DNA from: an uncultured Chryseobacterium sp.
GTDB taxonomy: Bacteria > Bacteroidota > Bacteroidia > UBA10329
Direction of reading: 5' to 3'
Assembly: GCA_964500205.1 (NCBI GenBank)
Contig: CAZCNS010000012.1
Coordinates: forward strand, 5,626-69,625
Length of the DNA stretch: 64,000 nucleotides
Notes under the pieces: generated by a model
What the model saw: only the letters and a program-made list of their open reading frames with translations
Database searches by the model: none
Told to the model about the DNA's origin: nothing
Translations under genes and position numbers: made by a program
Shown here: positions 9,722 to 64,000 of the stretch, piece by piece
Position numbering within the stretch: the first letter of the stretch is position 1
Layout of the letters: each line of letters opens with the position of its first letter

Positions 9722-10221
9722 AAGTTCTTCTGACACCAGTTCTATTCTCAACTGTGCTTTTCTGCATGGCTCAGACGAGCGAGTCTGATTTGGATGATTC
9801 GGAATCAGGATGGACAAGACCGTTGGAAAATGTGGACATGTCTGAGGGAAAATGTTGGGGAATCACGCTGACAGAAATTTACAACATCGGTGGGGCACAT
9901 CCCCGTGAGAAAAGGAAGTTAGGAGGGAATCGGCATTTGGAAAGGCTTGATAAGAAGTGGGTGATCGGGAGGCTTCAAGAATTGGCACATCTTAAGGATG
10001 AGTTCAGAGTACGAATGGATGAGCAGATTGACGGTTTTCATGAGTTCGTAATCACATTAAGGGGTAAGGACTGCAAGACCCAAGAGATCGTTTTTGATAG
10101 CAAGGCCAATTTTGATTTCGGTCAGCTTGAAAGTCACTTTAAGAGAACTGAGACAGTATACCACTACTCGAAAGGCAACTACCGAAAAACCGTAAATTGG
10201 GTTGTTAAAAAGCGCAATTGA
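9718..10221 (+). CDS. Hypothetical secreted protein (orphan)
   Basis: Its GTG start overlaps the yhcG-like stop (GTGA). Signal peptide MKVLLTPVLFSTVLFCMAQ. Visibly more AT-rich than its neighbours. Confidence 0.45.
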   Translation: MKVLLTPVLFSTVLFCMAQTSESDLDDSESGWTRPLENVDMSEGKCWGITLTEIYNIGGAHPREKRKLGGNRHLERLDKKWVIGRLQELAHLKDEFRVRMDEQIDGFHEFVITLRGKDCKTQEIVFDSKANFDFGQLESHFKRTETVYHYSKGNYRKTVNWVVKKRN

Positions 10222-29086: not shown

Positions 29087-29168
29087 GATGCTCTAAGACT
29101 CATGGAAGAAACCACGGTTCGTGAGAGTTCATAGTTCCGTTCAAGTAGATTTGTACTTGCCAGATGCT

Positions 29169-29183
29169 CTGTTTTTGGGGAAG
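29169..29183 (+). repeat. 15-bp direct repeat CTGTTTTTGGGGAAG, copy 1
   Basis: Identical 15-mer at 29957-29971. The reverse complement, CTTCCCCAAAAACAG, resembles IS3-family terminal sequences. Confidence 0.6.
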
Positions 29184-29203
29184 GCCTATCGAAGGCTTTA
29201 GTG

Positions 29204-29326
29204 TTACCCAAACTCCACCACCAAGTCATCTGCCTCCACCAGCGTTCCCGCTTCCAGCACCGTTTTCCGTATCATACCATCAGCAGGCGCTGTGACGGTC
29301 GTCTCCATCTTCATCGCCTCGATGAC
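29204..29326 (-). pseudogene. Displaced copy of the pyruvate carboxylase 3' end (biotinyl-domain C-terminus)
   Basis: Translates as SVIEAMKMETTVTAPADGMIRKTVLEAGTLVEADDLVVEFG*. The real pyc end is FVIEAMKMETTVTAPSDGVIRKTVLEAGTLVEADDLVVGFEGD*. There are 6 mismatches in the central 94 nt. No upstream gene body. Confidence 0.75.
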
Positions 29327-29350
29327 TGACAGGGAAGGTCTCTGCGTAGG

Positions 29351-29674
29351 TCAGGCAAGGTTCAGGGAGTTGTCCATAAGACTCACTTGAAAATTGACCT
29401 TGGCACCCAATGCTTTGAATACTTTGAGGATGGTCTCGAAGCGGGCATCCGTCAGGCTGTTCTCAATCTTAGATATTTGCGCCTTCTGCACTCCTACCAG
29501 TTTGCCCAATTCCTGTTGTGTCAGGTTACGTTGTAGGCGCGCTTGTTTGATGGCCTCTCCAATGAAATCCATCCTCAGTTCGTTCTCGAATGCCTCACGA
29601 TCGGGCGTGCCCAATTTGCCGATGTGCCTGTCAATCATTGCGTCAAGCGGCACGGTCTTAAGTTTCTTTTCCAT
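29351..29674 (-). CDS. XRE-family HTH protein, HigA-like antitoxin without a recognisable toxin partner
   Basis: QARLQRNLTQQELGKLVGVQKAQISKIENS is a classic Cro/C1 HTH. The length and N-terminal extension fit HigA-type antitoxins. Confidence 0.7.
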   Translation of the reverse strand: MEKKLKTVPLDAMIDRHIGKLGTPDREAFENELRMDFIGEAIKQARLQRNLTQQELGKLVGVQKAQISKIENSLTDARFETILKVFKALGAKVNFQVSLMDNSLNLA

Positions 29675-29688
29675 GATTGTGGTCTTTT

Positions 29689-29910
29689 CTATAACTGACT
29701 CAGGTACTGTTTCCGAATCTCTTCGGCCTTCTCAATTTCCTTGATGCGCTTGAGTTCCGTGGCATCAAGACCACCGTACTTCTTGCGCCAGCTGTACAGT
29801 GTGGCCGTGCTGATGCCCTTGGCGCGGCACACCTCCTCGGCAGTCTTCCCGTTCACATACTCCTTGAGTATGCTCACGATCTGTGTGGAACTGAATTTGC
29901 TCTTTCTCAT
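29689..29910 (-). mobile_element. IS3-family transposase OrfA (HTH) fragment with no OrfB; decayed IS
   Basis: MRKSKFSSTQIVSILKEYVNGKTAEEVCRAKGISTATLYSWRKKYGG matches the IS3/IS911 OrfA N-terminus. The leucine-zipper part and the catalytic ORF are missing. Confidence 0.7.
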
Positions 29911-29956
29911 CGTTCAACAGTTTGTGGTTAAAGTAAATCTCTAATTTCAAACTGTC

Positions 29957-29971
29957 CTGTTTTTGGGGAAG
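29957..29971 (+). repeat. 15-bp direct repeat CTGTTTTTGGGGAAG, copy 2 (candidate IS3 left end)
   Basis: Lies 47 nt upstream (on the minus strand) of the OrfA fragment's ATG. The minus strand reads TGAAAGCTTCCCCAAAAACAGGACAG. Confidence 0.55.
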
Positions 29972-30172
29972 CTTTCAGCTCCAAGAACTCCTCCGCCTCT
30001 GGCAACAGCTCTACGGCAAATTTCTGCTCCAACATTTCCGTCTGTCAAAGTTAGGGTTTCTTTTTTAGGAAACTAACGATGGTTGATGTTCACTGACCTC
30101 CCCTGACCCCTCCTTGTCAGGAGGGGAAATTCGCAGCCACCGCATTCGCTAATCGGCTAATTCGCTCAGTGC

Positions 30173-33100
30173 TCAATCACCCTCAAACCCCACCACCAGA
30201 TCATCCGCCTCCACCAGCGTTCCCGCTTCCAGCACCGTTTTCCGTATCACACCATCGGAAGGCGCGGTCACGGTCGTCTCCATCTTCATGGCCTCGATGA
30301 CGAACAGCGGCTGGTTCTGCTTCACCTTCTGACCCTCCTTCACCAGCACGCTGCTGAGCATCCCCTGTAGCGGTGCGCCCACGTGGAGCGGGTTGCTGCG
30401 GTCGGCCTTCACGTGCTCTTTGCGCACGATGTTGAGGCTGCGGTCGGTCACCTTGATGTTGCGCGTCTGGCCGTTCACGCGGAAGAAGAGCGTCCTGCGC
30501 CCGTCCTCGTCCGCTGGGCCTATGCTCTGCAGTTCGCACACCATGTTCTTGCCCTCGCCCAGCTCGATCATCGTCTCCTCGCGCAGCTTCATGCCGAAGA
30601 AGAAGTTCTTGGTGGGCACCTTGCTCAGGTCTCCGAACTCACGCACCTTCTTCCAGTATTCCTCAAAGACCTTGGGATACATCAGGTAGCTCAGGTAGTC
30701 GGTGTATTTCACCGCACCCTCGAATTTCCGCTTGAACTCCTCGAAGCCCTCCGCGAGGTCGATGGCCGGCAGGTGGCTGTTGGGGCGGTCGGTAAAGGGT
30801 TCCTCGCCCTTGAGGATGATGCGCTGCAGATCCTGCGGGAAACCGCCCACGGGCTGGCCCAGATGGCCCTTGAAGAACTCCACCACGCTCTCGGGGAAGC
30901 TGATGGTCGCGCCCCGCTCCATCACGTCCTGCACCGTGAGGCCGTTGCTGACAAGGAACAGCGACATATCGCCCACCACCTTGCTCGATGGCGTCACCTT
31001 CACCACGTCACCGAACAGCGCGTTCACCTCCGCGAACATCAGTTTGATGTCCTCAAACTTCTCCGCCAGGCCCAGCGCGTAGGCCTGCGGCTTGAGGTTG
31101 CTGTACTGCCCGCCAGGGATCTCGTGCTCGAACACGCTGGCCGTGCTGGCCTTCATGCCGCTCTCGAACGGATAATAGAGGTCGCGCACATTCTCCCAGT
31201 AGTTGGAGAAGCGGTTGAGGCTCTTGACATCCATAGGGTTCTCGCGTTCCTGGAAGCGCATCATCTCCACAATGCTGTTGAAGTTGGGCTGCGAGGTGAG
31301 GCCGCTCATGCTCGCCAGCGACACATCCACCACATCGACTCCCGCCTCGATGGCCTTGAGGTAGGTGGCGGCCTGCAGCCCGCTGGTGTCGTGCGTGTGC
31401 AGGTGGATGGGAATGCGCACCGTGGCCTTTAGCGCGCTGACGAGTTCCGAGGCCGCGTAGGGTTTCAGCAGGCCCGCCATGTCTTTGATGGCGATGATGT
31501 GGCTGCCCGCGTTCTCCAGGTCCTTAGCCAGCTGCACGTAGTATTCCAGCGTGTATTTGCTGCGCGATGGGTCGAGGATGTCGCCCGTGTAGCAGATGGT
31601 GCCCTCTGCTATGGCCTCGGTGCGGTTGCGCACATGGCCGATGCAAGGGGCGAGGCCCTTCATCCAGTTCAGCGAGTCGAAGATGCGGAAGATGTCCACG
31701 CCCGTCTCCCATGATTTCTCCACGAATTCGGCCACCACATTGTCGGGATACGCCTTGTAGCCCACACCGTTGCTGCCACGGATGAGCATTTGGAGCAGTG
31801 AGTTGGGGATGGCCTTGCGGAGCTGTGCCAGTCGGTCCCACGGATCCTCATGCAGGAATCGCAGGGCCACATCGAAGGTGGCACCGCCCCACACTTCATG
31901 GCTGAATATCTCGGGATGATGCTTCGCGTAACTCTCGGCCACAGCCAGCATGTCGAAGCTGCGCATGCGCGTTGCGAGTAGACTCTGGTGGGCATCGCGC
32001 ATGGTGGTATCAGTGTAGTGCACCACCTTTTCTTTCAGCAGCCAATCGCAGAAACGCTCAGGCCCCTGCTCGTTCAGCAGGTCTTTTGTACCCTTCGGGA
32101 ATGGCGCGTAACGGCCGAATTCGGGCACTACTGGCCGCACGAACTTCCTGTCGTGGTCGATGACCTTCACATCGGGATTGCCGTTCACCGTCACCTCGCC
32201 CAGATACTTGGCGATGCGCGTGGCACGATCACGTCCCTTCACCCATTTGAAAAGCTCAGGGTGCTCTGCGATGAAATTCACCGTGGCATTGCCCGATTTG
32301 AAAACGGGGTGGTTGACGATGTTCTCCAAGAACCGCATGTTGGTCTTCACCCCACGGATGCGGTACTCCTGCAGGCAGCGGGTCATCTTGCGGGCGGCCC
32401 CGTCCAGCGTGCGCGAGTGGGCGCAGACCTTCACCAACAATGAATCGAAGAATGGGCTGATGCGCACCCCGCTGTAGATGCTGCCGGGGTCGAGGCGGAT
32501 GCCGAAACCCTCCGCTGCGCGGTAGGCGATGATGGTGCCGTGGTCGGGCTTGAAGTCGTTCTCAGGATCTTCGGCCGTGATGCGGCATTGGATGGCGAAT
32601 CCGTTGACGCTGATGGCACTCTGGTCGGGGATGGCGATCTCGTCCTCGTCAAGTCGGTAGCCCATCGCGATGCGGATCTGCAGCTTCACGATGTCGATGC
32701 CAGTCACCATCTCCGTCACCGTGTGCTCCACCTGGATGCGGGGGTTCACTTCGATGAAATAGATGCTGCCATCCGCATCCACAAGGAATTCGACCGTACC
32801 CACGTTGTTATAGTTCACCGCCTTCGTGATGGCGATGGCGTGGTCGAAAAGCTGCTGTCGCACGGTGTCGTCCAGCCCTTTGGCAGGGGCCACTTCCACC
32901 ACTTTTTGAAACCTGCGCTGCACCGAGCAGTCGCGCTCGTGCAGGTGGACGATGTTGCCGTGGTTGTCAGCCACGATCTGCACCTCGATGTGTCGCGGAT
33001 TCTCGATGTATTTCTCAAGAAAAACAGTGTCATCTCCAAAGGAACGGGACGCTTCGCGCTTGGCCTCGTTGAAGGAGTTCTCCAACGATTGGCCGTCACG

Positions 33101-40375: not shown

Positions 40376-40470
40376 TTACCTGCTCAGATACAGGTTCCGC
40401 TCCGAGTACATCTCTGGAAGAACTCGTCCTGAAAATCGTCTATGAAGCGGATGGCATCTCTGTCTTGAAA
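40376..40470 (-). pseudogene. Displaced, frameshifted copy of the carB 3' end
   Basis: ACCTGCTCAGATACAGGTTCC is identical to 40920-40940. It encodes AIRFIDDFQDEFFQ against EAIRFIDDLQDEFFQ in carB. A 1-nt deletion relative to carB shifts the frame before the end. Confidence 0.75.
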
Positions 40471-40479
40471 CCGGATATC

Positions 40480-40815
40480 GGGATTACATGTCGCGATAAT
40501 GGGACTTAAAATCCCGAAGACGGGACTTAGAGTCCCGATATTGGGACTTCCTGTCCCGGAAATAGGACTCTGTATCCCATTAACGGGACTATATATCCCG
40601 ATGATGGGACTTAAAATCCCGAAAACGGGCCTTTGAGTCCCGTTAATGGGACTTAGAGTCCCGAAGATGGGACTTAGAGTCCCGATATTGGGACTTCCTG
40701 TCCCGAAAATAGGACTCCGTATCCCATTAACGGGACTACATATCCCGATTATGGGACTTAAAATCCCGAAAACGGGCCTTCGTGTCCCGTTAATGGGACT
40801 TAGAATCCCGAAATC
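40480..40815. repeat. Tandem array of 16 x 21-bp dyad-symmetric units (GGGACT-N3-AGTCCC plus a 6-nt spacer) with a 147-bp higher-order repeat
   Basis: Unit starts: 40480 (degenerate), 40501, 40522, 40543, 40565, 40585, 40606, 40627, 40648, 40669, 40690, 40712, 40732, 40753, 40774, 40795. Block 40522-40668 nearly equals block 40669-40815. Confidence 0.9.
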
Positions 40816-40917
40816 CATGCATTGAACTGGTGGCACGGTCAAGTGTTCCGAGGGATTCTTGCAAAGCATTGGCCCCAAACGGATGACCTATAAGGAAGAC
40901 GCACCCAACACTCCCAA

Positions 40918-57903: not shown

Positions 57904-58836
57904 TCAGGCTCGCAGGGAGTGGAAGTCCACATCCCACAGCGATACCGTGCGGTCGTCCGATACGGAGATGAGTGTGCGGTCGTCTTTCCACAGCAGACGG
58001 TTGACTGATGTGCCGTGTCCGGCATGGCTTCCTCGGTCTATGGTCTTCAGGCTGCGCGGCCCATCCGGGTCCCAGATGCGGATGCTCTTGTCCTTGCTGC
58101 ACGTGGCGAACACATCGCCCGAGGGGCGGAAGAGAATGTCGTTCACCGTGTACATGTGCGGGATGATGTCGGTGGCAGGCGCGTAGCCCTCGCTCACGTC
58201 ATACGTTCGTAAGTGTGCATCACGGCCTGATGTGTACAGCAGTTTTCCGTCTGGGGAATAGTTCACCGTGAAAACCGAGTTGCTGGCATCTGTAATGGTG
58301 AGCAGGACGCGCAGATCCTCTGTGCTGAGGATGCGCACCGTGTGGTCGGAGCTGCCGATGGCCAATTCGGTGCGCGCAGGGTTCAGTGCCATTGCGCGCA
58401 GCGATTTATCAGACACCTTCACTTTCGATATCGTTCTCCACTCACGGAGGTTCACCACGTGAAGCACACCGTCCCCGCAGGCCACGAAGAGGAGGTCGTC
58501 CATGGCCTGCATGGCGAATATGGCCGATGATGTGAGCGAGAGGCTTCGCACTTGTCTGCGCTCCTTCGGATCGATGAGGTGAATGCCGTCAAAGTTCTGC
58601 CCTACGATCAGCAGGCCGTCCATCGGCAGATGGTGAAGCGCATAGACGGTGGCATTCATCTTGGCCACCACCTCACCGTTGTCGGGGTCGGAGGTGCGCC
58701 ATTGCACCACCATGCCATCGGCCCCGGCCGTCCAGAAAAGGTCGCTCCCCTCATCTCCTGCAATGGTGTAGATGCAGTCTTGATGCCCTTGGCACGTGGC
58801 GATCTTGGTCACTTCCGGTATCGCGATGTTGCCCAT
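57904..58836 (-). CDS. WD40-repeat protein
   Basis: Repeated ...GSSDHTVRI / SGRDAHLRTYD / CSKDKSIRIWD / VSDDRTVSLWD blades. Confidence 0.75.
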   Translation of the reverse strand: MGNIAIPEVTKIATCQGHQDCIYTIAGDEGSDLFWTAGADGMVVQWRTSDPDNGEVVAKMNATVYALHHLPMDGLLIVGQNFDGIHLIDPKERRQVRSLSLTSSAIFAMQAMDDLLFVACGDGVLHVVNLREWRTISKVKVSDKSLRAMALNPARTELAIGSSDHTVRILSTEDLRVLLTITDASNSVFTVNYSPDGKLLYTSGRDAHLRTYDVSEGYAPATDIIPHMYTVNDILFRPSGDVFATCSKDKSIRIWDPDGPRSLKTIDRGSHAGHGTSVNRLLWKDDRTLISVSDDRTVSLWDVDFHSLRA

Positions 58837-58955
58837 GGCGCAAAATTCATCGATCGGAACGCTTCCCCGACACGCACTCGCGACATCCTTCCATCATTAC
58901 ACCGGGCCATCCCGACTTCGCATCGCACCTTTGCATTTCTCAAAAATGACCACTG

Positions 58956-60242
58956 GTGAAAAGACATCTTTTTCCTGATAGAAACGAATGGGACGGCCTT
59001 CTGAAACGTCCCATACACAAGGCCGCAGACCTCGATGTCATTGTGCGTGAGGTGTTTGAGGCGGTGAGCAGCAATGGCGATGAGGCGGTGCTGCGCTACA
59101 CAGAGAAGTTCGACAAAGTGGTTCCCTATGCGCTTCGGGTGACTGAGGATGCGGTCGCTGATGCCGCACTTGATGTGCCAAAAGGGTTGCAGGATGCCAT
59201 TCGCATGGCCGCAGGCAACATTGAGCGCTTCCATGCCTCGCAACGATTGGAGAGCACGGTGGTCGAGACCACTCCTGGTGTGCAATGCTGGCGCGAAGAG
59301 CGGCCTATCGAGCGGGTCGGCATCTACATTCCGGGAGGCACTGCACCGCTTTTCTCTACCGTGCTGATGCTGGGAATTCCCGCAAAACTGGCAGGATGCT
59401 CAGAGGTTGTGCTATGCACGCCTCCCGACCGCGAGGGCCGCATCCATCCTGCTATCCTGTTCTGTGCGCATCTCTTGGGCATAACGAAGGTGTTCGCAGT
59501 GGGTGGCATTCAAGCCATAGCCGCGATGACTTTGGGTACCGAAACCATTCCCTCAGTTTACAAGATTTTCGGGCCGGGCAATCAATTCGTCACAGCCGCC
59601 AAGCAGCACGCACAGCGCATGGGCGTGGCCATCGACATGCCTGCTGGCCCTTCGGAGTTGCTTGTCATGGCCGATGACACGGCCGACCCCGCCTTCGTGG
59701 CCGCAGACCTGCTCTCTCAGGCCGAGCATGGCGCTGATAGTCAGGTGATCCTTGTCAGCACCTCACAGCGGCTGGTCGATAGGGTGGAGGAGGAGCTCTC
59801 CGTACAGCTGGAGGCGCTTCCCCGGAAGGAGATGGCCCGCGAGGCATTGACCCACTCCAAGGCCATCATACTCGCTACAGACCGCGAATGTCTTGATCTC
59901 ATTAACTCCTATGGCCCTGAGCATTTCATCCTCTGTTGCGAGCAGGAGGAGTTGTTCATTTCCGGTATTGTGAATGCAGGCTCGGTGTTCATCGGCAACT
60001 ACACGCCCGAAAGTGCTGGCGACTATGCATCTGGCACCAATCATACACTGCCAACCAATGGATTCGCCAAGGCTTATAGCGGGGTCAACTTGCAGTCGTT
60101 CACGCGGTCGGTCACTTTTCAGCGCATCAGTGCCGAAGGCATTGTGAATATTGGCCCCGCCATCGAGCAAATGGCAGCTGCCGAGGGTTTGCAAGCGCAT
60201 CGCAATGCGGTGACCTTGCGACTGGCCGCGTTGAAAGCGTAG
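58956..60242 (+). CDS. hisD: Histidinol dehydrogenase
   Basis: GIYIPGGTAPLFSTVLM, AGPSELLV, LSQAEHG, DYASGTNHTLPT. The start is GTG. Confidence 0.9.
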   Translation: MKRHLFPDRNEWDGLLKRPIHKAADLDVIVREVFEAVSSNGDEAVLRYTEKFDKVVPYALRVTEDAVADAALDVPKGLQDAIRMAAGNIERFHASQRLESTVVETTPGVQCWREERPIERVGIYIPGGTAPLFSTVLMLGIPAKLAGCSEVVLCTPPDREGRIHPAILFCAHLLGITKVFAVGGIQAIAAMTLGTETIPSVYKIFGPGNQFVTAAKQHAQRMGVAIDMPAGPSELLVMADDTADPAFVAADLLSQAEHGADSQVILVSTSQRLVDRVEEELSVQLEALPRKEMAREALTHSKAIILATDRECLDLINSYGPEHFILCCEQEELFISGIVNAGSVFIGNYTPESAGDYASGTNHTLPTNGFAKAYSGVNLQSFTRSVTFQRISAEGIVNIGPAIEQMAAAEGLQAHRNAVTLRLAALKA

Positions 60243-60340
60243 AGGATGCTTCGCTCCTCCATGAATCCGAAGTGAGCGCTTTATCCAAAGGGCTGAACCT
60301 ATTGCGGTGGGTTTGATGAGCACTTCTACTACCCCCACAG

Positions 60341-60361
60341 CCTGTCCCGCAATGGCGGGAG
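60341..60361 (+). repeat. Second REP-like hairpin type (CCTGYCCCGCAAWRGCGGGRAG)
   Basis: TCCCGC-aatg-GCGGGA abuts the left REP of RAYT unit 1. A variant, CCCCGC-aaaa-GCGGGG, occurs at 62444-62465. Confidence 0.55.
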
Positions 60362-60364
60362 ACC

Positions 60365-61048
60365 CCGCCCGCGCGAGGCTGCGCCTCGTGCGTACTATTC
60401 GGAACCGTCCTCGGTTCCAAATCCCAATAGCCGTATTTTCACGCCATGTCCACACGCTACAAGACATGGCCAGGCCAGCTTTACTACACTACCACAACGG
60501 TGGTCGGTTGGATAGACGTTTTCACACGGCAACAGTATGTGGACATCCTTTATGACAGCATCCGCTATTGCCAGCAGCACAAAGAGTTGGAACTGTACGC
60601 CTATGTCATCATGCCCAATCACTTCCACCTCATCTGCCGCACACAGGAGAATGCGCTCAACTTTGTGATGCGCGACCTCAAGAGCTTCACGGCCCGCACC
60701 ATTGTCAAGACCGTGGACACCAACCTGCATGAAAGCCGCAGGGAATGGCTCATGCACATGTTCAGATACTATGGCCGTGGCAGTGCCAACAACAGGGACT
60801 ATCAGTTCTGGCAGCACGGCAATCATCCCATCGAACTGCGCAGCAATGCGGTTTTCTGGCAGAAACTGCGCTACCTGCACAATAACCCCGTGAAGGCAGG
60901 CATCGTTACCGAGCCGCATCATTACCTTCACAGCAGTGCCCACCCCGACCGGAGACTTGATGTACTTGACATTGTTTGAAATGATGAATAAAATGCTGAC
61001 GAGGACGTCAGCCAATAGAACGCACGAGGCGCAGCCTCGCGCGGGCGG
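60365..61048 (+). mobile_element. REP-flanked Y1/HUH transposase (RAYT-like) unit, copy 1
   Basis: Perfect 28-bp terminal inverted repeats: CCGCCCGCGCGAGGCTGCGCCTCGTGCG at 60365-60392 and its reverse complement at 61021-61048. Each is itself hairpin-forming. Inner hairpins GGAACCG-tcct-CGGTTCC (60401-60418) and GCTGACG-agga-CGTCAGC (60995-61012). Confidence 0.8.
60446..60979 (+). CDS. IS200/IS605-type Y1 (HUH) transposase, RAYT-like
   Basis: HUH motif in YVIMPNHFHLI. Catalytic Tyr context KLRYLHNNPVKAG. 177 aa. Confidence 0.9.
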   Translation: MSTRYKTWPGQLYYTTTTVVGWIDVFTRQQYVDILYDSIRYCQQHKELELYAYVIMPNHFHLICRTQENALNFVMRDLKSFTARTIVKTVDTNLHESRREWLMHMFRYYGRGSANNRDYQFWQHGNHPIELRSNAVFWQKLRYLHNNPVKAGIVTEPHHYLHSSAHPDRRLDVLDIV

Positions 61049-61106
61049 ATTCTTCAGTGTATCAAATTTATCAATGGAATCAGCCGCTGCATTAAAGTTA
61101 AGTGAA

Positions 61107-61574
61107 ATGAACACTTACAAATTGACTTCATGGTCAGTCGTAATTATACTGATTGCAATTTACAGTTGCAATCCGCCTGAAACCATGCGTATTAGCCATC
61201 AAAATGCAATTGGCACGTACGTGTGTAATGCGAGGCACGGAGTAGAAATCCTTGTGTTAGAACAGGACTCAACATATATTTATGAAATTAGAGATATTAA
61301 TGGCGAGTACTATATTTTCGATGGAAGGTGGTGCGGCCCAGTCAAATACACCAGATCGAATGTCCCCGGACTCGCCTTTGTATTTTATGAATGGCCGATA
61401 GACTACATGCTATATCAAAAATCATTTTCTGACTATGAAGAGAATCGTAGGAAAGGAAGAAAGATAGATTACCAAATCCAGATGGTTATCAAGCGAGTGG
61501 ATTCAGAGTGGACATATGTACTTGAAAGAAGCCCTGAATTTACAGGTACTGATTTTATAAAGCAACGACAATAA
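61107..61574 (+). CDS. AT-rich orphan lipoprotein
   Basis: MNTYKLTSWSVVIILIAIYSC lipobox. Composition is much more AT-rich than the backbone. No recognisable family. Confidence 0.45.
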   Translation: MNTYKLTSWSVVIILIAIYSCNPPETMRISHQNAIGTYVCNARHGVEILVLEQDSTYIYEIRDINGEYYIFDGRWCGPVKYTRSNVPGLAFVFYEWPIDYMLYQKSFSDYEENRRKGRKIDYQIQMVIKRVDSEWTYVLERSPEFTGTDFIKQRQ

Positions 61575-61617
61575 TCGTGTTTCGGATTAAATATTTATTG
61601 CGTGCCAAGCCAAAGGT

Positions 61618-61778
61618 GATGGCGCAAGTTTGAAACTTGTGTCGGTGGTTTTTGCTCGGAGATTGTGAAAAATAAAGTTGGTAAATGCTTTTGATACCAT
61701 TTAAATGTCTTAATGCCGCATGGGTATTCCCTTGAGGTATCATGCCGTTATAGGTTTCAACGAGCGTGAAACGCGACA
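61618..61778 (+). repeat. ~161-bp hairpin-rich repeat R, copy 1
   Basis: About 95% identical to 63028-63188. Contains GGCGCAAGTT-tga-AACTTGTGTC (with G:T pairs), GCATGgGTAT...GTATCATGC and GTTTCA-acgagcg-TGAAAC hairpins. It ends exactly at the left REP of RAYT copy 2. Confidence 0.8.
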
Positions 61779-61780
61779 CC

Positions 61781-62485
61781 CCGCCCGCGCGAGGCTGCGC
61801 CTCGTGCGTACTATTCGGAACCGTCCTCGGTTCCAAATCCCAATAGCCGTATTTTCACGCCATGTCCACACGCTACAAGACATGGCCAGGCCAGCTTTAC
61901 TACACTACCACAACGGTGGTCGGTTGGATAGACGTTTTCACACGGCAACAGTATGTGGACATCCTTTATGACAGCATCCGCTATTGCCAGCAGCACAAAG
62001 AGTTGGAACTGTACGCCTATGTCATCATGCCCAATCACTTCCACCTCATCTGCCGCACACAGGAGAATGCGCTCAACTTTGTGATGCGCGACCTCAAGAG
62101 CTTCACGGCCCGCACCATTGTCAAGACCGTGGACACCAACCTGCATGAAAGCCGCAGGGAATGGCTCATGCACATGTTCAGATACTATGGCCGTGGCAGT
62201 GCCAACAACAGGGACTATCAGTTCTGGCAGCACGGCAATCATCCCATCGAACTGCGCAGCAATGCGGTTTTCTGGCAGAAACTGCGCTACCTGCACAATA
62301 ACCCCGTGAAGGCAGGCATCGTTACCGAGCCGCATCATTACCTTCACAGCAGTGCCCACCCCGACCGGAGACTTGATGTACTTGACATTGTTTGAAATGA
62401 TGAATAAAATGCTGACGAGGACGTCAGCCAATAGAACGCACTGCCTGCCCCGCAAAAGCGGGGAGGCGCAGCCTCGCGCGGGCGG
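61781..62485 (+). mobile_element. REP-flanked RAYT-like unit, copy 2; right REP interrupted by a 21-nt nested hairpin
   Basis: Left TIR at 61781-61808 is identical to copy 1. Right TIR is split: CGCAC (62437-62441), a 21-nt insert (62442-62462), then GAGGCGCAGCCTCGCGCGGGCGG (62463-62485). Confidence 0.8.
61862..62395 (+). CDS. IS200/IS605-type Y1 (HUH) transposase, RAYT-like, copy 2
   Basis: Translation is identical to 60446-60979. Confidence 0.9.
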   Translation: MSTRYKTWPGQLYYTTTTVVGWIDVFTRQQYVDILYDSIRYCQQHKELELYAYVIMPNHFHLICRTQENALNFVMRDLKSFTARTIVKTVDTNLHESRREWLMHMFRYYGRGSANNRDYQFWQHGNHPIELRSNAVFWQKLRYLHNNPVKAGIVTEPHHYLHSSAHPDRRLDVLDIV

Positions 62486-62560
62486 ACCGCTCATTCTTCC
62501 TATTGCACCCCCAGTTAGTACTCACGTGTTTATGCCCGTATTAATGATAAATAAAAAGTA

Positions 62561-62974
62561 ATGATGAAAAAGTTCACATTTAACAATAAGAGATCAAGTA
62601 TTACACATACATTAATGAATATAATGGTTGCAGTATTTGCTAGTACACTCATGTTTGATGTAGAATTTGTTGTCGACAAGTATTTGTTGTTTTTATCATC
62701 TGCAATTTGCGTATTTATTTACACGATATTTTTGATTAATGAATCGAATAAGACTATTAAAGAAATTATACTGGATGAAAAAACAGCTGTATTTACTTTC
62801 TTTAATAAAAAGAAAAAAAAATACCCGATTGAAAGAAAAGAACTACAAATAAAGATAGAAAGCGGAAAAATCGCATTGTCCCACAAAACGAGAAGTGACT
62901 TTAATGGGGTGGCTTATAGGAAAATGATGGACAACCCTTCTGAATGGGATGACTTGGTTAGCAGCATTCAGTGA
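62561..62974 (+). CDS. Very AT-rich orphan membrane protein
   Basis: Two predicted TM helices (IMVAVFASTLMF; LLFLSSAICVFIYTIFLI). The first 60 nt contain only 14 G+C. No recognisable family. Confidence 0.4.
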   Translation: MMKKFTFNNKRSSITHTLMNIMVAVFASTLMFDVEFVVDKYLLFLSSAICVFIYTIFLINESNKTIKEIILDEKTAVFTFFNKKKKKYPIERKELQIKIESGKIALSHKTRSDFNGVAYRKMMDNPSEWDDLVSSIQ

Positions 62975-62976
62975 GG

Positions 62977-63188
62977 GGCTTTAGCGATGGCGCAAGTTTG
63001 CAACTTGTGCCCGTGGTTGGCTTTAGCGATGGCGCAAGTTTGAAGCTTGTGTCCTTGGTTTTTGCTCGGAGATTGTGAAAAATAAAGTTGGCAAACGCTT
63101 TTGACACCATTTAAATATCTTAATGCCGCATGGGTATTCCCTTGAGGTATCATGCCGTTATAGGTTTCAACGAGCGTGAAACGCGACA
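62977..63188 (+). repeat. Repeat R, copy 2, with an internal 42-bp tandem duplication of the first hairpin
   Basis: GGCTTTAGCGATGGCGCAAGTTTG(C/A)A(A/G)CTTGTG..GGTT occurs at 62977-63018 and again at 63019-63060. The core 63028-63188 aligns with 61618-61778. Confidence 0.8.
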
Positions 63189-63351
63189 TTTGAAACCATA
63201 AACGGTATGAGAAGGACGCTGCTGAAAGATCTCCAAAGTGTTCGACTTGTCGCAGTGATCAATCTGCAATCGATATTGTGCAACCGATCGGCCTGATGCG
63301 GGTAGCTTCCCACGCGTGCGGGACTTTTTGCAGTAATCACCATGGGGACGG

Positions 63352-63619
63352 TCACTTCCCCTTCCGCATCCCCTCCGCCAGCCGCACCAGTTCTGCGATC
63401 TGTTCCGGGGCCAGTCCCTCCAGCATGTCATCCGTCCGCAACTCCTCCACCTCGTTCAGCCCGTTCAGATGGCTCCTTCCGCTCCCATCATAGGCGAACA
63501 GCTCGTTCGGATAGACATCGAACAGCTCGCATAGCCGCGTCATGATGCTGAAGCGCACCATCCGCAGCCGAGGGTTCAGGATGCTTCGCGCCTCGTCCCT
63601 CGTGAATCCGTGCGTCACC
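63352..63619 (-). pseudogene. 5'-truncated XRE-family HTH gene, cut by RAYT unit 3
   Basis: Only the distal HTH part remains (ILNPRLRMVRFSIMTRLCELFDVYPNELF) plus a C-terminal tail. The apparent N-terminus MEPRTVPNSTHEAQPRAGG is REP sequence read in reverse. Confidence 0.55.
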
Positions 63620-64000
63620 CCGCCCGCGCGAGGCTGTGCCTCGTGCGTACTATTCGGAACCGTCCTCGGTTCCAAATCCCAATAGCCGTATTTTCACGCC
63701 ATGTCCACACGCTACAAGACATGGCCAGGCCAGCTTTACTACACTACCACAACGGTGGTCGGTTGGATAGACGTTTTCACACGGCAACAGTATGTGGACA
63801 TCCTTTATGACAGCATCCGCTATTGCCAGCAGCACAAAGAGTTGGAACTGTACGCCTATGTCATCATGCCCAATCACTTCCACCTCATCTGCCGCACACA
63901 GGAGAATGCGCTCAACTTTGTGATGCGCGACCTCAAGAGCTTCACGGCCCGCACCATTGTCAAGACCGTGGACACCAACCTGCATGAAAGCCGCAGGGAA
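63620..64000 (+). mobile_element. REP-flanked RAYT-like unit, copy 3 (runs off the window)
   Basis: Left TIR at 63620-63647 has one substitution (CTGTGCC). The same 83-nt leader precedes the ATG. Confidence 0.8.
63701..64000 (+). CDS. IS200/IS605-type Y1 (HUH) transposase, RAYT-like, copy 3 (3' partial)
   Basis: The first 100 codons are identical to the other two copies. Confidence 0.9.
   Translation, partial: MSTRYKTWPGQLYYTTTTVVGWIDVFTRQQYVDILYDSIRYCQQHKELELYAYVIMPNHFHLICRTQENALNFVMRDLKSFTARTIVKTVDTNLHESRRE

What the first reader, a model, noticed from the sequence alone, without database searches (positions are those of the whole stretch)
60341..64000. Three identical REP-flanked Y1/HUH (RAYT-like) transposase units within 3.7 kb
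The CDSs 60446-60979, 61862-62395 and 63701-64000 (running off the window) translate identically and appear nucleotide-identical. Each has the same 83-nt leader. Unit 1 has perfect 28-bp terminal inverted repeats (60365-60392 and 61021-61048), each an imperfect palindrome (CGCGAGGC-tg-GCCTCGTG). It also has inner hairpins at 60401-60418 and 60995-61012. This is the classic RAYT-between-inverted-REPs layout. In the REP/RAYT systems I know, however, the transposase is a single-copy domesticated gene. Three identical tandemly dispersed copies point instead to a currently active element or very recent segmental amplification. Copy 3 has truncated an XRE gene, which shows real insertion activity.
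Basis: partly seen in the sequence, partly recalled or inferred. Interest (0 to 1): 0.7.

Follow-up and report, generated by a model that had tools for sequence, protein, structure and literature searches.

The report
Multi-copy REP-flanked RAYT transposase array
Three near-identical copies of a small hairpin-flanked tyrosine (RAYT-type) transposase gene sit head-to-tail within 3.7 kb of a Bacteroidota genome, separated by unrelated small genes; this family is normally single-copy and immobile, so these copies look like one that still moves or moved very recently.

Summary
Three 177-aa ORFs are nucleotide-identical. Each lies in a ~686-bp unit bounded by 35-bp inverted repeats that fold into a 10-bp REP hairpin plus a second 7-bp hairpin.

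The protein is a class-2 Y1 HUH "REP-associated tyrosine transposase". It scores 105 bits against NCBIfam NF047646 (cut-off 80), has intact HxH and Y---NP motifs, and its best fold match is E. coli TnpA-REP (4ER8).

Its behaviour is IS-like rather than domesticated:
- unit boundaries are sharp and the flanks differ;
- copy 3 cuts an HTH gene that lacks about 23 N-terminal codons;
- proteins ≥90% identical sit in at least 6 different genomic contexts;
- three independent internally deleted (MITE/REPIN-like) derivatives exist in relatives;
- three independent short-read assemblies break exactly where the sequence becomes repeated.

The array is more than scattered insertions. The units alternate with unrelated AT-rich cargo ORFs, and each cargo ends in a REP-variant hairpin. 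The same tandem layout recurs in another metagenome. No other REP copy lies in the remaining 60 kb, and the exact protein is recorded on one contig only, so the amplification looks local. Copy 2's right REP is split by a 21-nt mini-hairpin.

Verdict: a new variant of a known kind, of moderate interest. Genome-wide counts and the right-hand extension could not be obtained.

The parts
60363..61049 (+). RAYT unit 1. Left end: REP hairpin 60370-60392 and inner hairpin 60401-60418. CDS 60446-60979. Right end: inner hairpin 60995-61012 and REP 61021-61043 on the minus strand.
61074..61574 (+). Cargo ORF A, 166 aa from the ATG at 61074. Lipoprotein-like N-terminus, 35-43% GC, no homologue found.
61609..61778 (+). 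Repeat module copy 1: 42-nt unit with REP-variant hairpin GGCGCAAGTT-TGA-AACTTGTGTC (61620-61644), then a 161-nt repeat that ends exactly at the left end of unit 2.
61779..62486 (+). RAYT unit 2. Left end and CDS (61862-62395) are identical to unit 1. The right REP is split by a 21-nt mini-hairpin insertion at 62442-62462.
62561..62974 (+). Cargo ORF B, 137 aa. Two predicted hydrophobic segments, 27-30% GC, unrelated to ORF A.
62977..63188 (+). Repeat module copy 2: two 42-nt units with REP-variant hairpins (62988-63012, 63031-63053), then the 161-nt repeat (96% identical to copy 1). No RAYT unit follows at 63188/63189, so this copy serves as a paralogous 'empty' comparator.
63352..63617 (-). 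5'-truncated HTH (Cro/C1-like, weak HTH_26) gene. It lacks about 23 N-terminal codons and is cut at the left end of unit 3.
63618..64000 (+). RAYT unit 3, which runs off the window. Left REP 63625-63647 carries a C->T at 63637. Inner hairpin 63656-63673. CDS starts at 63701.
60342..60362 (+). Free copy of the mini-hairpin (CTGTCCCGCAATGGCGGGAGA), abutting the left end of unit 1.

Best explanation
Each ~686-bp unit is a self-contained, IS-like mobile element of the RAYT / TnpA-REP clade of Y1 HUH transposases, probably Quentin subclass 2.6 (Bertels group 5), which is typical of Bacteroidota. Inferred mechanism, by analogy with E. coli TnpA-REP and IS608/ISDra2: the 177-aa enzyme (HUH His59/His61, Tyr143) binds the imperfect REP hairpin on single-stranded DNA. 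Recognition would use the conserved G.T mismatch and the adjacent second hairpin. The enzyme cuts next to the hairpin through a 5'-phosphotyrosine link and rejoins strands, without target-site duplication. In this genome the element has multiplied very recently to at least 3 direct copies (0-1 substitutions), apparently by local reinsertion next to REP-like hairpins, and one insertion destroyed an HTH gene. Shown here: the family assignment, the intact catalytic motifs, the conserved covarying hairpins, the sharp boundaries, the interrupted gene, the presence of near-identical relatives at many loci, and the deletion derivatives. Inferred only: the chemistry, the strand used, the cleavage positions, and whether the copies are still active.
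For: Family and catalytic site:
- NF047646 REP_Tyr_transpos scores 105.4 bits against a cut-off of 80, and Pfam Y1_Tnp matches.
- H59, H61 and W122 are invariant, and Q123, Y143 and P148 conserved, across 26 homologues.
- The AlphaFold model has pLDDT 87.7, and its best PDB match is 4ER8, TnpA-REP bound to a REP.

Conserved end structure:
- The ends fold far better than shuffled sequence.
- Across 11 distinct REPs, 100% of cells pair, 6 of 10 pairs show compensatory changes, and the G.T is kept in 10 of 11.
- The inner hairpin is kept with at least 10 different stems and a TCCT-like loop.

Evidence of movement in this window:
- The units are 99.7-100% identical, whereas the adjacent 161-nt repeat is only 96% identical.
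- The flanks differ right at the inverted repeats, and there are no direct repeats.
- The HTH gene is cut at the left end of unit 3.
- The second copy of the 161-nt repeat lacks an insertion at the homologous point.

Evidence from other data sets:
- Proteins at least 90% identical sit in at least 6 contexts.
- Internally deleted derivatives that keep both ends occur in L006, L073 and L153.
- Short-read contigs break at the REP.
Against: - All copies lie in one orientation within 3.7 kb and are interleaved with cargo plus a repeated module. Recombination could build this pattern too.
- The same tandem layout in L049 suggests a systematic array-forming process rather than random hops.
- The exact protein is recorded on only one contig of the source assembly.
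- No REP copy lies in the other 60 kb.
- Unit 2's right REP is destroyed.
- No empty site or excision junction from the same species was found.
- More distant relatives (58-67% identity) are single-copy at fixed loci.
Confidence: 0.55

Rival explanations
1. The array was built by recombination rather than element-by-element transposition. Circles or segments carrying one RAYT unit plus adjacent cargo integrate at a resident copy, or unequal crossing-over and gene conversion act between copies. The result is direct identical copies alternating with different cargo, as in IS26 pseudo-compound arrays. The RAYT itself might be inactive, or might act only at the junctions.
For: The copies are in direct orientation with unrelated cargo between them. 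Each cargo ends in the same module. Another metagenome shows an equivalent layout of unit, ~1-kb cargo, LE-like (left-end-like) module and next unit. In relatives at 58% identity, three strains diverge exactly after the right end and carry different cargo. The exact protein is on one contig only.
Against: Gene conversion would have to stop exactly at the inverted repeats on both sides. The truncated HTH gene and the many unrelated contexts of close relatives point to genuine insertion events. Deletion derivatives that keep both ends are typical of transposable elements.
Confidence: 0.27
2. This is an ordinary domesticated REP/RAYT system. The RAYT serves a genome-wide REP/REPIN population, and the triplication is an incidental local duplication with no bearing on mobility.
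For: The protein belongs to the RAYT equivalog. More distant relatives are single-copy at conserved loci with a few solo REPs nearby. One relative genome shows REP clusters without a RAYT (L096).
Against: There are no REPs in 60 kb outside the array. No genome in the representative-genome scan holds more than 3 exact REP-core matches. Most metagenome matches are chance hits in GC-rich DNA, and the true family hits are element ends. Close relatives occupy many different loci.
Confidence: 0.12
3. The triplication is an assembly artefact, an expanded repeat.
For: Identical repeats of about 0.7 kb are a classic source of misassembly. I could not inspect read coverage.
Against: Each copy has private features: a SNP in unit 3, a 21-nt insertion in unit 2, and unique spacers and flanks. 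Independent assemblies from three runs break exactly at the start of the repeat, as expected for a true multi-copy sequence. An independent metagenome contig spans two tandem copies of a 93%-identical element.
Confidence: 0.03

Closest known systems
REPtron / RAYT (TnpA-REP) systems, e.g. E. coli yafM (PDB 4ER8); Quentin et al. 2018 class 2, subclass 2.6 (= Bertels group 5, Bacteroidetes)
   Same: A Y1 HUH protein with the Y---NP motif and a length of 177 aa (subclass median 179). The gene is bracketed by inverted imperfect palindromes carrying a conserved mismatch. The best fold match is 4ER8, and the protein passes the NCBIfam RAYT equivalog.
   Different: There are at least 3 identical copies instead of 1-2 divergent ones. 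There is no GTAG foot. The ends are bipartite, a REP plus a second hairpin. No dispersed REP population is visible. [quoted passage not shown]
IS200/IS605-family insertion sequences (IS200, IS608, ISDra2)
   Same: A small Y1 HUH transposase, hairpin ends, no target duplication, multi-copy near-identical behaviour, and deletion (MITE-like) derivatives.
   Different: The protein fails the IS200 equivalog (21.8 bits against a cut-off of 55) and has Y---NP rather than Y---Q. The ends are inverted 35-bp repeats, not same-strand subterminal hairpins. There is no tnpB.
IS26-type arrays of translocatable units (pseudo-compound transposons)
   Same: Directly oriented identical transposase units alternate with unrelated cargo segments.
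   Different: The enzyme class is entirely different (DDE versus HUH). The resemblance is in layout only and the mechanism was not tested.
REPINs (Bertels and Rainey)
   Same: Relatives carry 216-320-bp derivatives made of the two inverted REP ends with a short spacer.
   Different: These derivatives are visibly internal deletions of the RAYT unit. They are few, and none lies in the window.

Membership tests
RAYT / TnpA-REP (class 2 Y1 HUH) | HUH motif and catalytic Tyr in a Y---NP motif | tested here: met
   NHFH at 58-61 and YLHNNP at 143-148. H59 and H61 are invariant; Y143 and P148 are at least 90% conserved in 26 homologues.
RAYT / TnpA-REP (class 2 Y1 HUH) | Passes a curated family model | tested here: met
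   NF047646 scores 105.4 bits against a cut-off of 80. Pfam PF01797 scores 30.6 against 23.
RAYT / TnpA-REP (class 2 Y1 HUH) | Fold closest to TnpA-REP | tested here: met
   Foldseek top hit is 4ER8_A (E = 6e-6, TM 0.63/0.67), ahead of ISDra2, IS200 and IS608 TnpA.
RAYT / TnpA-REP (class 2 Y1 HUH) | Gene flanked by inverted REP hairpins with a conserved mismatch | tested here: met
RAYT / TnpA-REP (class 2 Y1 HUH) | Conserved 5' GTAG-type tetranucleotide at the hairpin foot (canonical REPs) | tested here: not met
   The foot is CCGCC/CCCG in all family ends. Quentin 2018 describes subclass 2.6 structures as 'atypical'.
RAYT / TnpA-REP (class 2 Y1 HUH) | Single (or few, divergent) copies; vertically inherited at a fixed locus | tested here: not met
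   Three identical copies in the window. Proteins at least 90% identical sit in at least 6 contexts.
RAYT / TnpA-REP (class 2 Y1 HUH) | Cognate REP/REPIN population dispersed over the genome | tested here: inconclusive
   None in 60 kb outside the array. At most 3 exact matches per representative genome.
IS200/IS605 | TnpA of the IS200 type (Y---Q motif; IS200 equivalog) | tested here: not met
   NF033573 scores 21.8 bits against a cut-off of 55. The Y motif is Y---NP.
IS200/IS605 | Left and right hairpins on the same strand, with no terminal inverted repeats | tested here: not met
   The unit has 35-bp inverted repeats. However, a same-strand REP-variant hairpin follows each cargo.
IS200/IS605 | Multi-copy, near-identical, no target-site duplication | tested here: met
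IS26-like translocatable-unit arrays | Direct identical copies alternating with cargo, formed by targeted conservative integration | not testable with these tools
   The layout matches. The mechanism is unknown.

The most novel reading that the evidence does not exclude
The real unit is a composite made of the RAYT unit, variable cargo gene(s), and a terminal LE-like (left-end-like) REP-variant module. These composites stack head-to-tail. That would make it a HUH/REP-driven gene-cassette array in Bacteroidota, functionally analogous to integron or IS26 arrays, that collects small secreted, lipoprotein, toxin-antitoxin and orphan-toxin-type genes. The recurrent mini-hairpin that splits the REP at one fixed position would mark the enzyme's cleavage/joining site.
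Probability: 0.17. Interest if true: 0.8.

Novelty: new variant of a known kind. Interest (0 to 1): 0.55.

Why it matters
RAYTs are the textbook example of a domesticated bacterial transposase, and their in-vivo activity on REPs has never been pinned down. The E. coli REPtron does not move as a unit. A RAYT-clade element would be a natural candidate for an active, autonomous RAYT if it is present in identical copies, interrupts a gene, sits at many loci in close relatives and sheds deletion derivatives. It could serve as an experimental handle on how REP hairpins are cut and pasted, and it may represent an intermediate between IS200-like insertion sequences and domesticated REP systems. If the cargo-array reading holds, it would also add a new way for Bacteroidota to assemble variable islands of small genes.

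Tried and rejected
Attempts to extend the window or count copies genome-wide failed:
- The exact RAYT, ORF A and ORF B look-ups returned nothing.
- The cluster look-up shows only that the exact protein is on one 131,773-bp NCBI contig.

Collection scans gave limited returns:
- The single representative-genome scan with the REP core gave 13 stretches. None is from the source genome and no genome has more than 3 matches.
- The viral contig scan gave 0 matches. The phage collection gave no match, and plasmids gave only 5 distant matches.

Other negative results:
- Rfam found nothing credible in 58000-64000.
- Pfam found nothing for ORF A or ORF B, and ORF A is an ORFan.
- I considered that the 161-nt repeat encodes a peptide on the minus strand. 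I rejected this because all 7 differences between the two copies are non-synonymous.
- I considered that the cargo ORFs are diverged duplicates, and rejected it.
- I looked for a common target motif at the left flanks (GGGAGA, GCGACA, GCGTCA, CCTTTT) and found none convincing.
- The sigma-70-type promoter and terminator hits carry little weight, because Bacteroidota promoters differ from that consensus.
Full report
OBSERVATION. The three ORFs are real. CDS 60446-60979 and 61862-62395 are nucleotide-identical, and 63701-64000 equals their first 300 nt. Units 1 and 2 are identical from 60362/61778 through 61025/62441, and again over the last 24 nt up to 61049/62486. The only difference is a 21-nt insertion in unit 2 (62442-62462). 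Unit 3 matches unit 1 over 384 nt with one change, a C->T at 63637. As single-stranded DNA, each end folds into a 10-bp outer stem (CGCGCGAGGC-TGC-GCCTCGTGCG, one G.T) followed 8 nt later by a 7-bp hairpin. The inner stems are GGAACCG-TCCT-CGGTTCC on the left and GCTGACG-TCCT-CGTCAGC on the right: the same loop on different stems. The folds have z-scores of -4.5 and -5.6. In the 64-kb window the REP 23-mer occurs only at unit ends, against 0 expected, and a looser 13-mer search adds nothing credible.

NOT AN ARTEFACT. The neighbouring WD40 protein led to three short-read assemblies from different runs. All three are 100% identical to the window and all end at 60391. That is the first 31-mer shared among the copies, which is the expected behaviour at a true repeat. 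The copies also carry private differences and have unique spacers. A contig from an unrelated metagenome (L049) spans two tandem copies of a 93%-identical element.

WHAT THE PROTEIN IS. The protein scores 105.4 bits against NCBIfam NF047646 'REP-associated tyrosine transposase' (cut-off 80). It fails the IS200 equivalog (21.8 against 55), and Pfam Y1_Tnp is a modest hit. In an alignment of 26 homologues at 46-90% identity, H59 and H61 (NHFH) and W122 are invariant, Q123 is conserved with one exception, and Y143 and P148 of YLHNNP are at least 90% conserved. This is the Y---NP signature of class-2 TnpA-REP in Quentin et al. 2018 (PMC6006769). The motifs, the 177-aa length and the host phylum fit their subclass 2.6 (= Bertels group 5) best. 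I did not test that placement against reference sets. The AlphaFold model (pLDDT 87.7) matches E. coli TnpA-REP bound to a REP (4ER8) best, followed by ISDra2, IS200 and IS608 transposases. Homologues come from Bacteroidota MAGs and isolates such as Saprospiraceae, Hymenobacter and Adhaeribacter.

THE ENDS ARE CONSERVED STRUCTURES. I collected ends from relatives. Across 11 distinct REP sequences, all 110 cells pair, 6 of 10 pairs show compensatory double changes, and the G.T at pair 4 is kept in 10 of 11. Slid controls drop to 24-63% pairing. These sequences were hand-picked, so the numbers are descriptive only. The second hairpin always lies 5-13 nt (usually 8-12) after the REP. It has at least 10 different stems and a pyrimidine-rich loop, mostly TCCT. 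E. coli TnpA-REP needs the mismatch in its REP for binding (PMC3333891), and the conserved G.T here is the parallel feature. The canonical GTAG foot is absent.

SIGNS OF MOBILITY.
- The flanks change exactly at the inverted repeats, and there is no target duplication.
- The ORF left of unit 3 (63352-63617, minus strand) has 108-112-aa homologues that begin 23-27 residues earlier. The best is P0121, where query residues 2-88 align to residues 24-110. The break is at the left end of the unit. The family is a weak Cro/C1-type HTH_26 match.
- The 161-nt repeat ends exactly at the left end of unit 2. Its 96%-identical second copy continues into unrelated DNA at 63188/63189.
- The units are 99.7-100% identical while that neighbouring repeat has 7 differences in 161 nt. 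The units are therefore younger, or have been homogenised.
- Proteins in the same 90% cluster sit in different contexts: next to hisD (this window); between small ORFs and dnaE2 (L153); between a restriction-modification HNH gene and a TonB_C gene (L156-L158); beside a second, 45%-identical RAYT (L079, L155); in tandem (L049); and with other flanks (L069/L089, L125, L129).
- Three independent internal-deletion derivatives keep both ends: L006 (285 bp), L073 (320 bp) and L153 8273-8488 (216 bp). The L153 derivative is 97-100% identical to the window units over its three aligned segments.
- Many close homologues lie on contigs of about 1 kb, the usual fate of repeats in metagenome assemblies.

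By contrast, relatives at 67% and 58% identity are single-copy at fixed loci across samples.

THE ARRAY IS STRUCTURED. Between the units lie unrelated AT-rich ORFs. ORF A is 166 aa, lipoprotein-like and an ORFan. ORF B is 137 aa with two hydrophobic segments. Each ORF is followed by a 42-nt unit carrying a hairpin, GGCGCAAGTT-TGC-AACTTGTGCC. This keeps the REP's outer pairs, loop and G.T while swapping three inner pairs compensatorily. The hairpins also look like terminators.

Hairpins of the form GCGCAAG-NN..NN-CTTGTG, in the same orientation as the left REP, lie about 400-800 nt downstream of the right end in the window and in L049, L069, L089, L121 and L125. There are none in 554 kb of unrelated loci. 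In the sister lineage this module is visibly left-end-like. It has the CCCCGCCCGC flank, a second hairpin and a leader ending in ATG. In L049 the next unit follows it. In L125 it is followed, in frame, by an RHS-core-like fragment, and a ParE-type toxin-antitoxin pair is inserted within it.

In the 58% relatives, three strains diverge exactly after the right end and carry different cargo. A 198-nt REP-bearing segment is present in some strains and absent in others. Another genome shows 7 REPs in 3 kb alternating with small lipoprotein ORFs. The recurring layout is thus RAYT unit, cargo, REP-like module, next unit. This is why a recombination or 'translocatable unit' origin of the array remains a serious rival to simple repeated transposition.

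LIMITS. I could not extend the window or count copies in the source genome. The exact protein is recorded on a single 131,773-bp contig. That argues for a local amplification rather than a dispersed one, although collapsed or unbinned copies cannot be excluded. No dispersed REPs were seen. No genome in the representative-genome scan has more than 3 exact REP-core matches. Unit 2's right REP is destroyed by the insertion, so that copy may be immobile.

COMPARISON AND VERDICT. By sequence, fold and end layout this is a RAYT/REPtron. It departs from the family's defining lifestyle, which is single-copy or divergent copies at a fixed locus serving a dispersed REP population (PMC5581495, PMC6006769, PMC3333891). 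Instead it behaves like an insertion sequence and forms cargo-interleaved tandem arrays. Near-identical RAYT duplicates are documented but rare (0.8-6.3% depending on group). The novelty therefore lies in the combination and in the array architecture, not in the gene. I rate it a new variant of a known kind, with interest 0.55.

Noticed in passing
window 62442-62462; L153 ~9903-9924 (also L154); window 60342-60362: A ~21-nt mini-hairpin (CCCGCTTTTGCGGGGCAGGCA) splits the REP of unit 2's right end between GCCTC and GTGCG. A near-identical insert (CCCGCAAAATACGGGGCAGGCA) sits at the very same REP position in the LEFT end of a 93%-identical single-copy element in another organism. A third, free copy abuts unit 1. 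It may be a site-specific event or a footprint of the cleavage site; it remains unexplained.
   Followed up: partly
window 60236-60270 vs 63570-63610: About 40 nt just after the hisD stop are homologous to the 5' part of the truncated HTH gene next to unit 3: a 17-mer with one degenerate position matches, plus a further 8-mer. So both unit 1 and unit 3 have an HTH-gene fragment on their left side.
   Followed up: partly
window 60966-60994 and 62382-62410: An outward-facing sigma-70-like promoter (TTGACA-17-TAAAAT, 11/12) spans the end of the RAYT CDS and points into the cargo ORFs. Its relevance in Bacteroidota is doubtful.
   Followed up: no
L079 and L155: Two different RAYT genes (about 92% and about 45% identical to the window protein) lie directly adjacent in the same orientation, each with its own REP type (GGCGCGCGTT-TGC-AACGCGTGCC for the second).
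   Followed up: partly
L125 (from ~60 nt into the locus): A left-end-like module supplies an in-frame ATG to an RHS-core-like orphan fragment (..YDFGSRMYSSRLGRWSATDP..). A ParE-type toxin-antitoxin pair is inserted in the module, flanked by 19-nt direct repeats.
   Followed up: partly
L024 / L026 / L028: In a 58%-identical single-copy RAYT locus, three strains diverge exactly after the right end and carry different Por_Secre_tail cargo genes. A 198-nt REP-bearing segment flanked by a 10-nt direct repeat (TTAATTCTGC) is present in two strains and absent in one.
   Followed up: partly
L096 730-3800; L003 3296-3370: L096 has seven REPs of a sister subfamily within 3 kb, alternating with small lipoprotein ORFs and followed by a VapC-like gene, with no RAYT in the stretch. 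L003 has a tandem array of REPs with a 27-nt period.
   Followed up: no
window 40468-40824: A 21-nt tandem repeat with at least 11 copies at 60-87% identity, presumably a 7-residue protein repeat.
   Followed up: no
window 29139-30320: Two pairs of direct repeats (137 nt at 87% identity; 45 nt at 76% identity) spaced about 0.8-1 kb apart.
   Followed up: no
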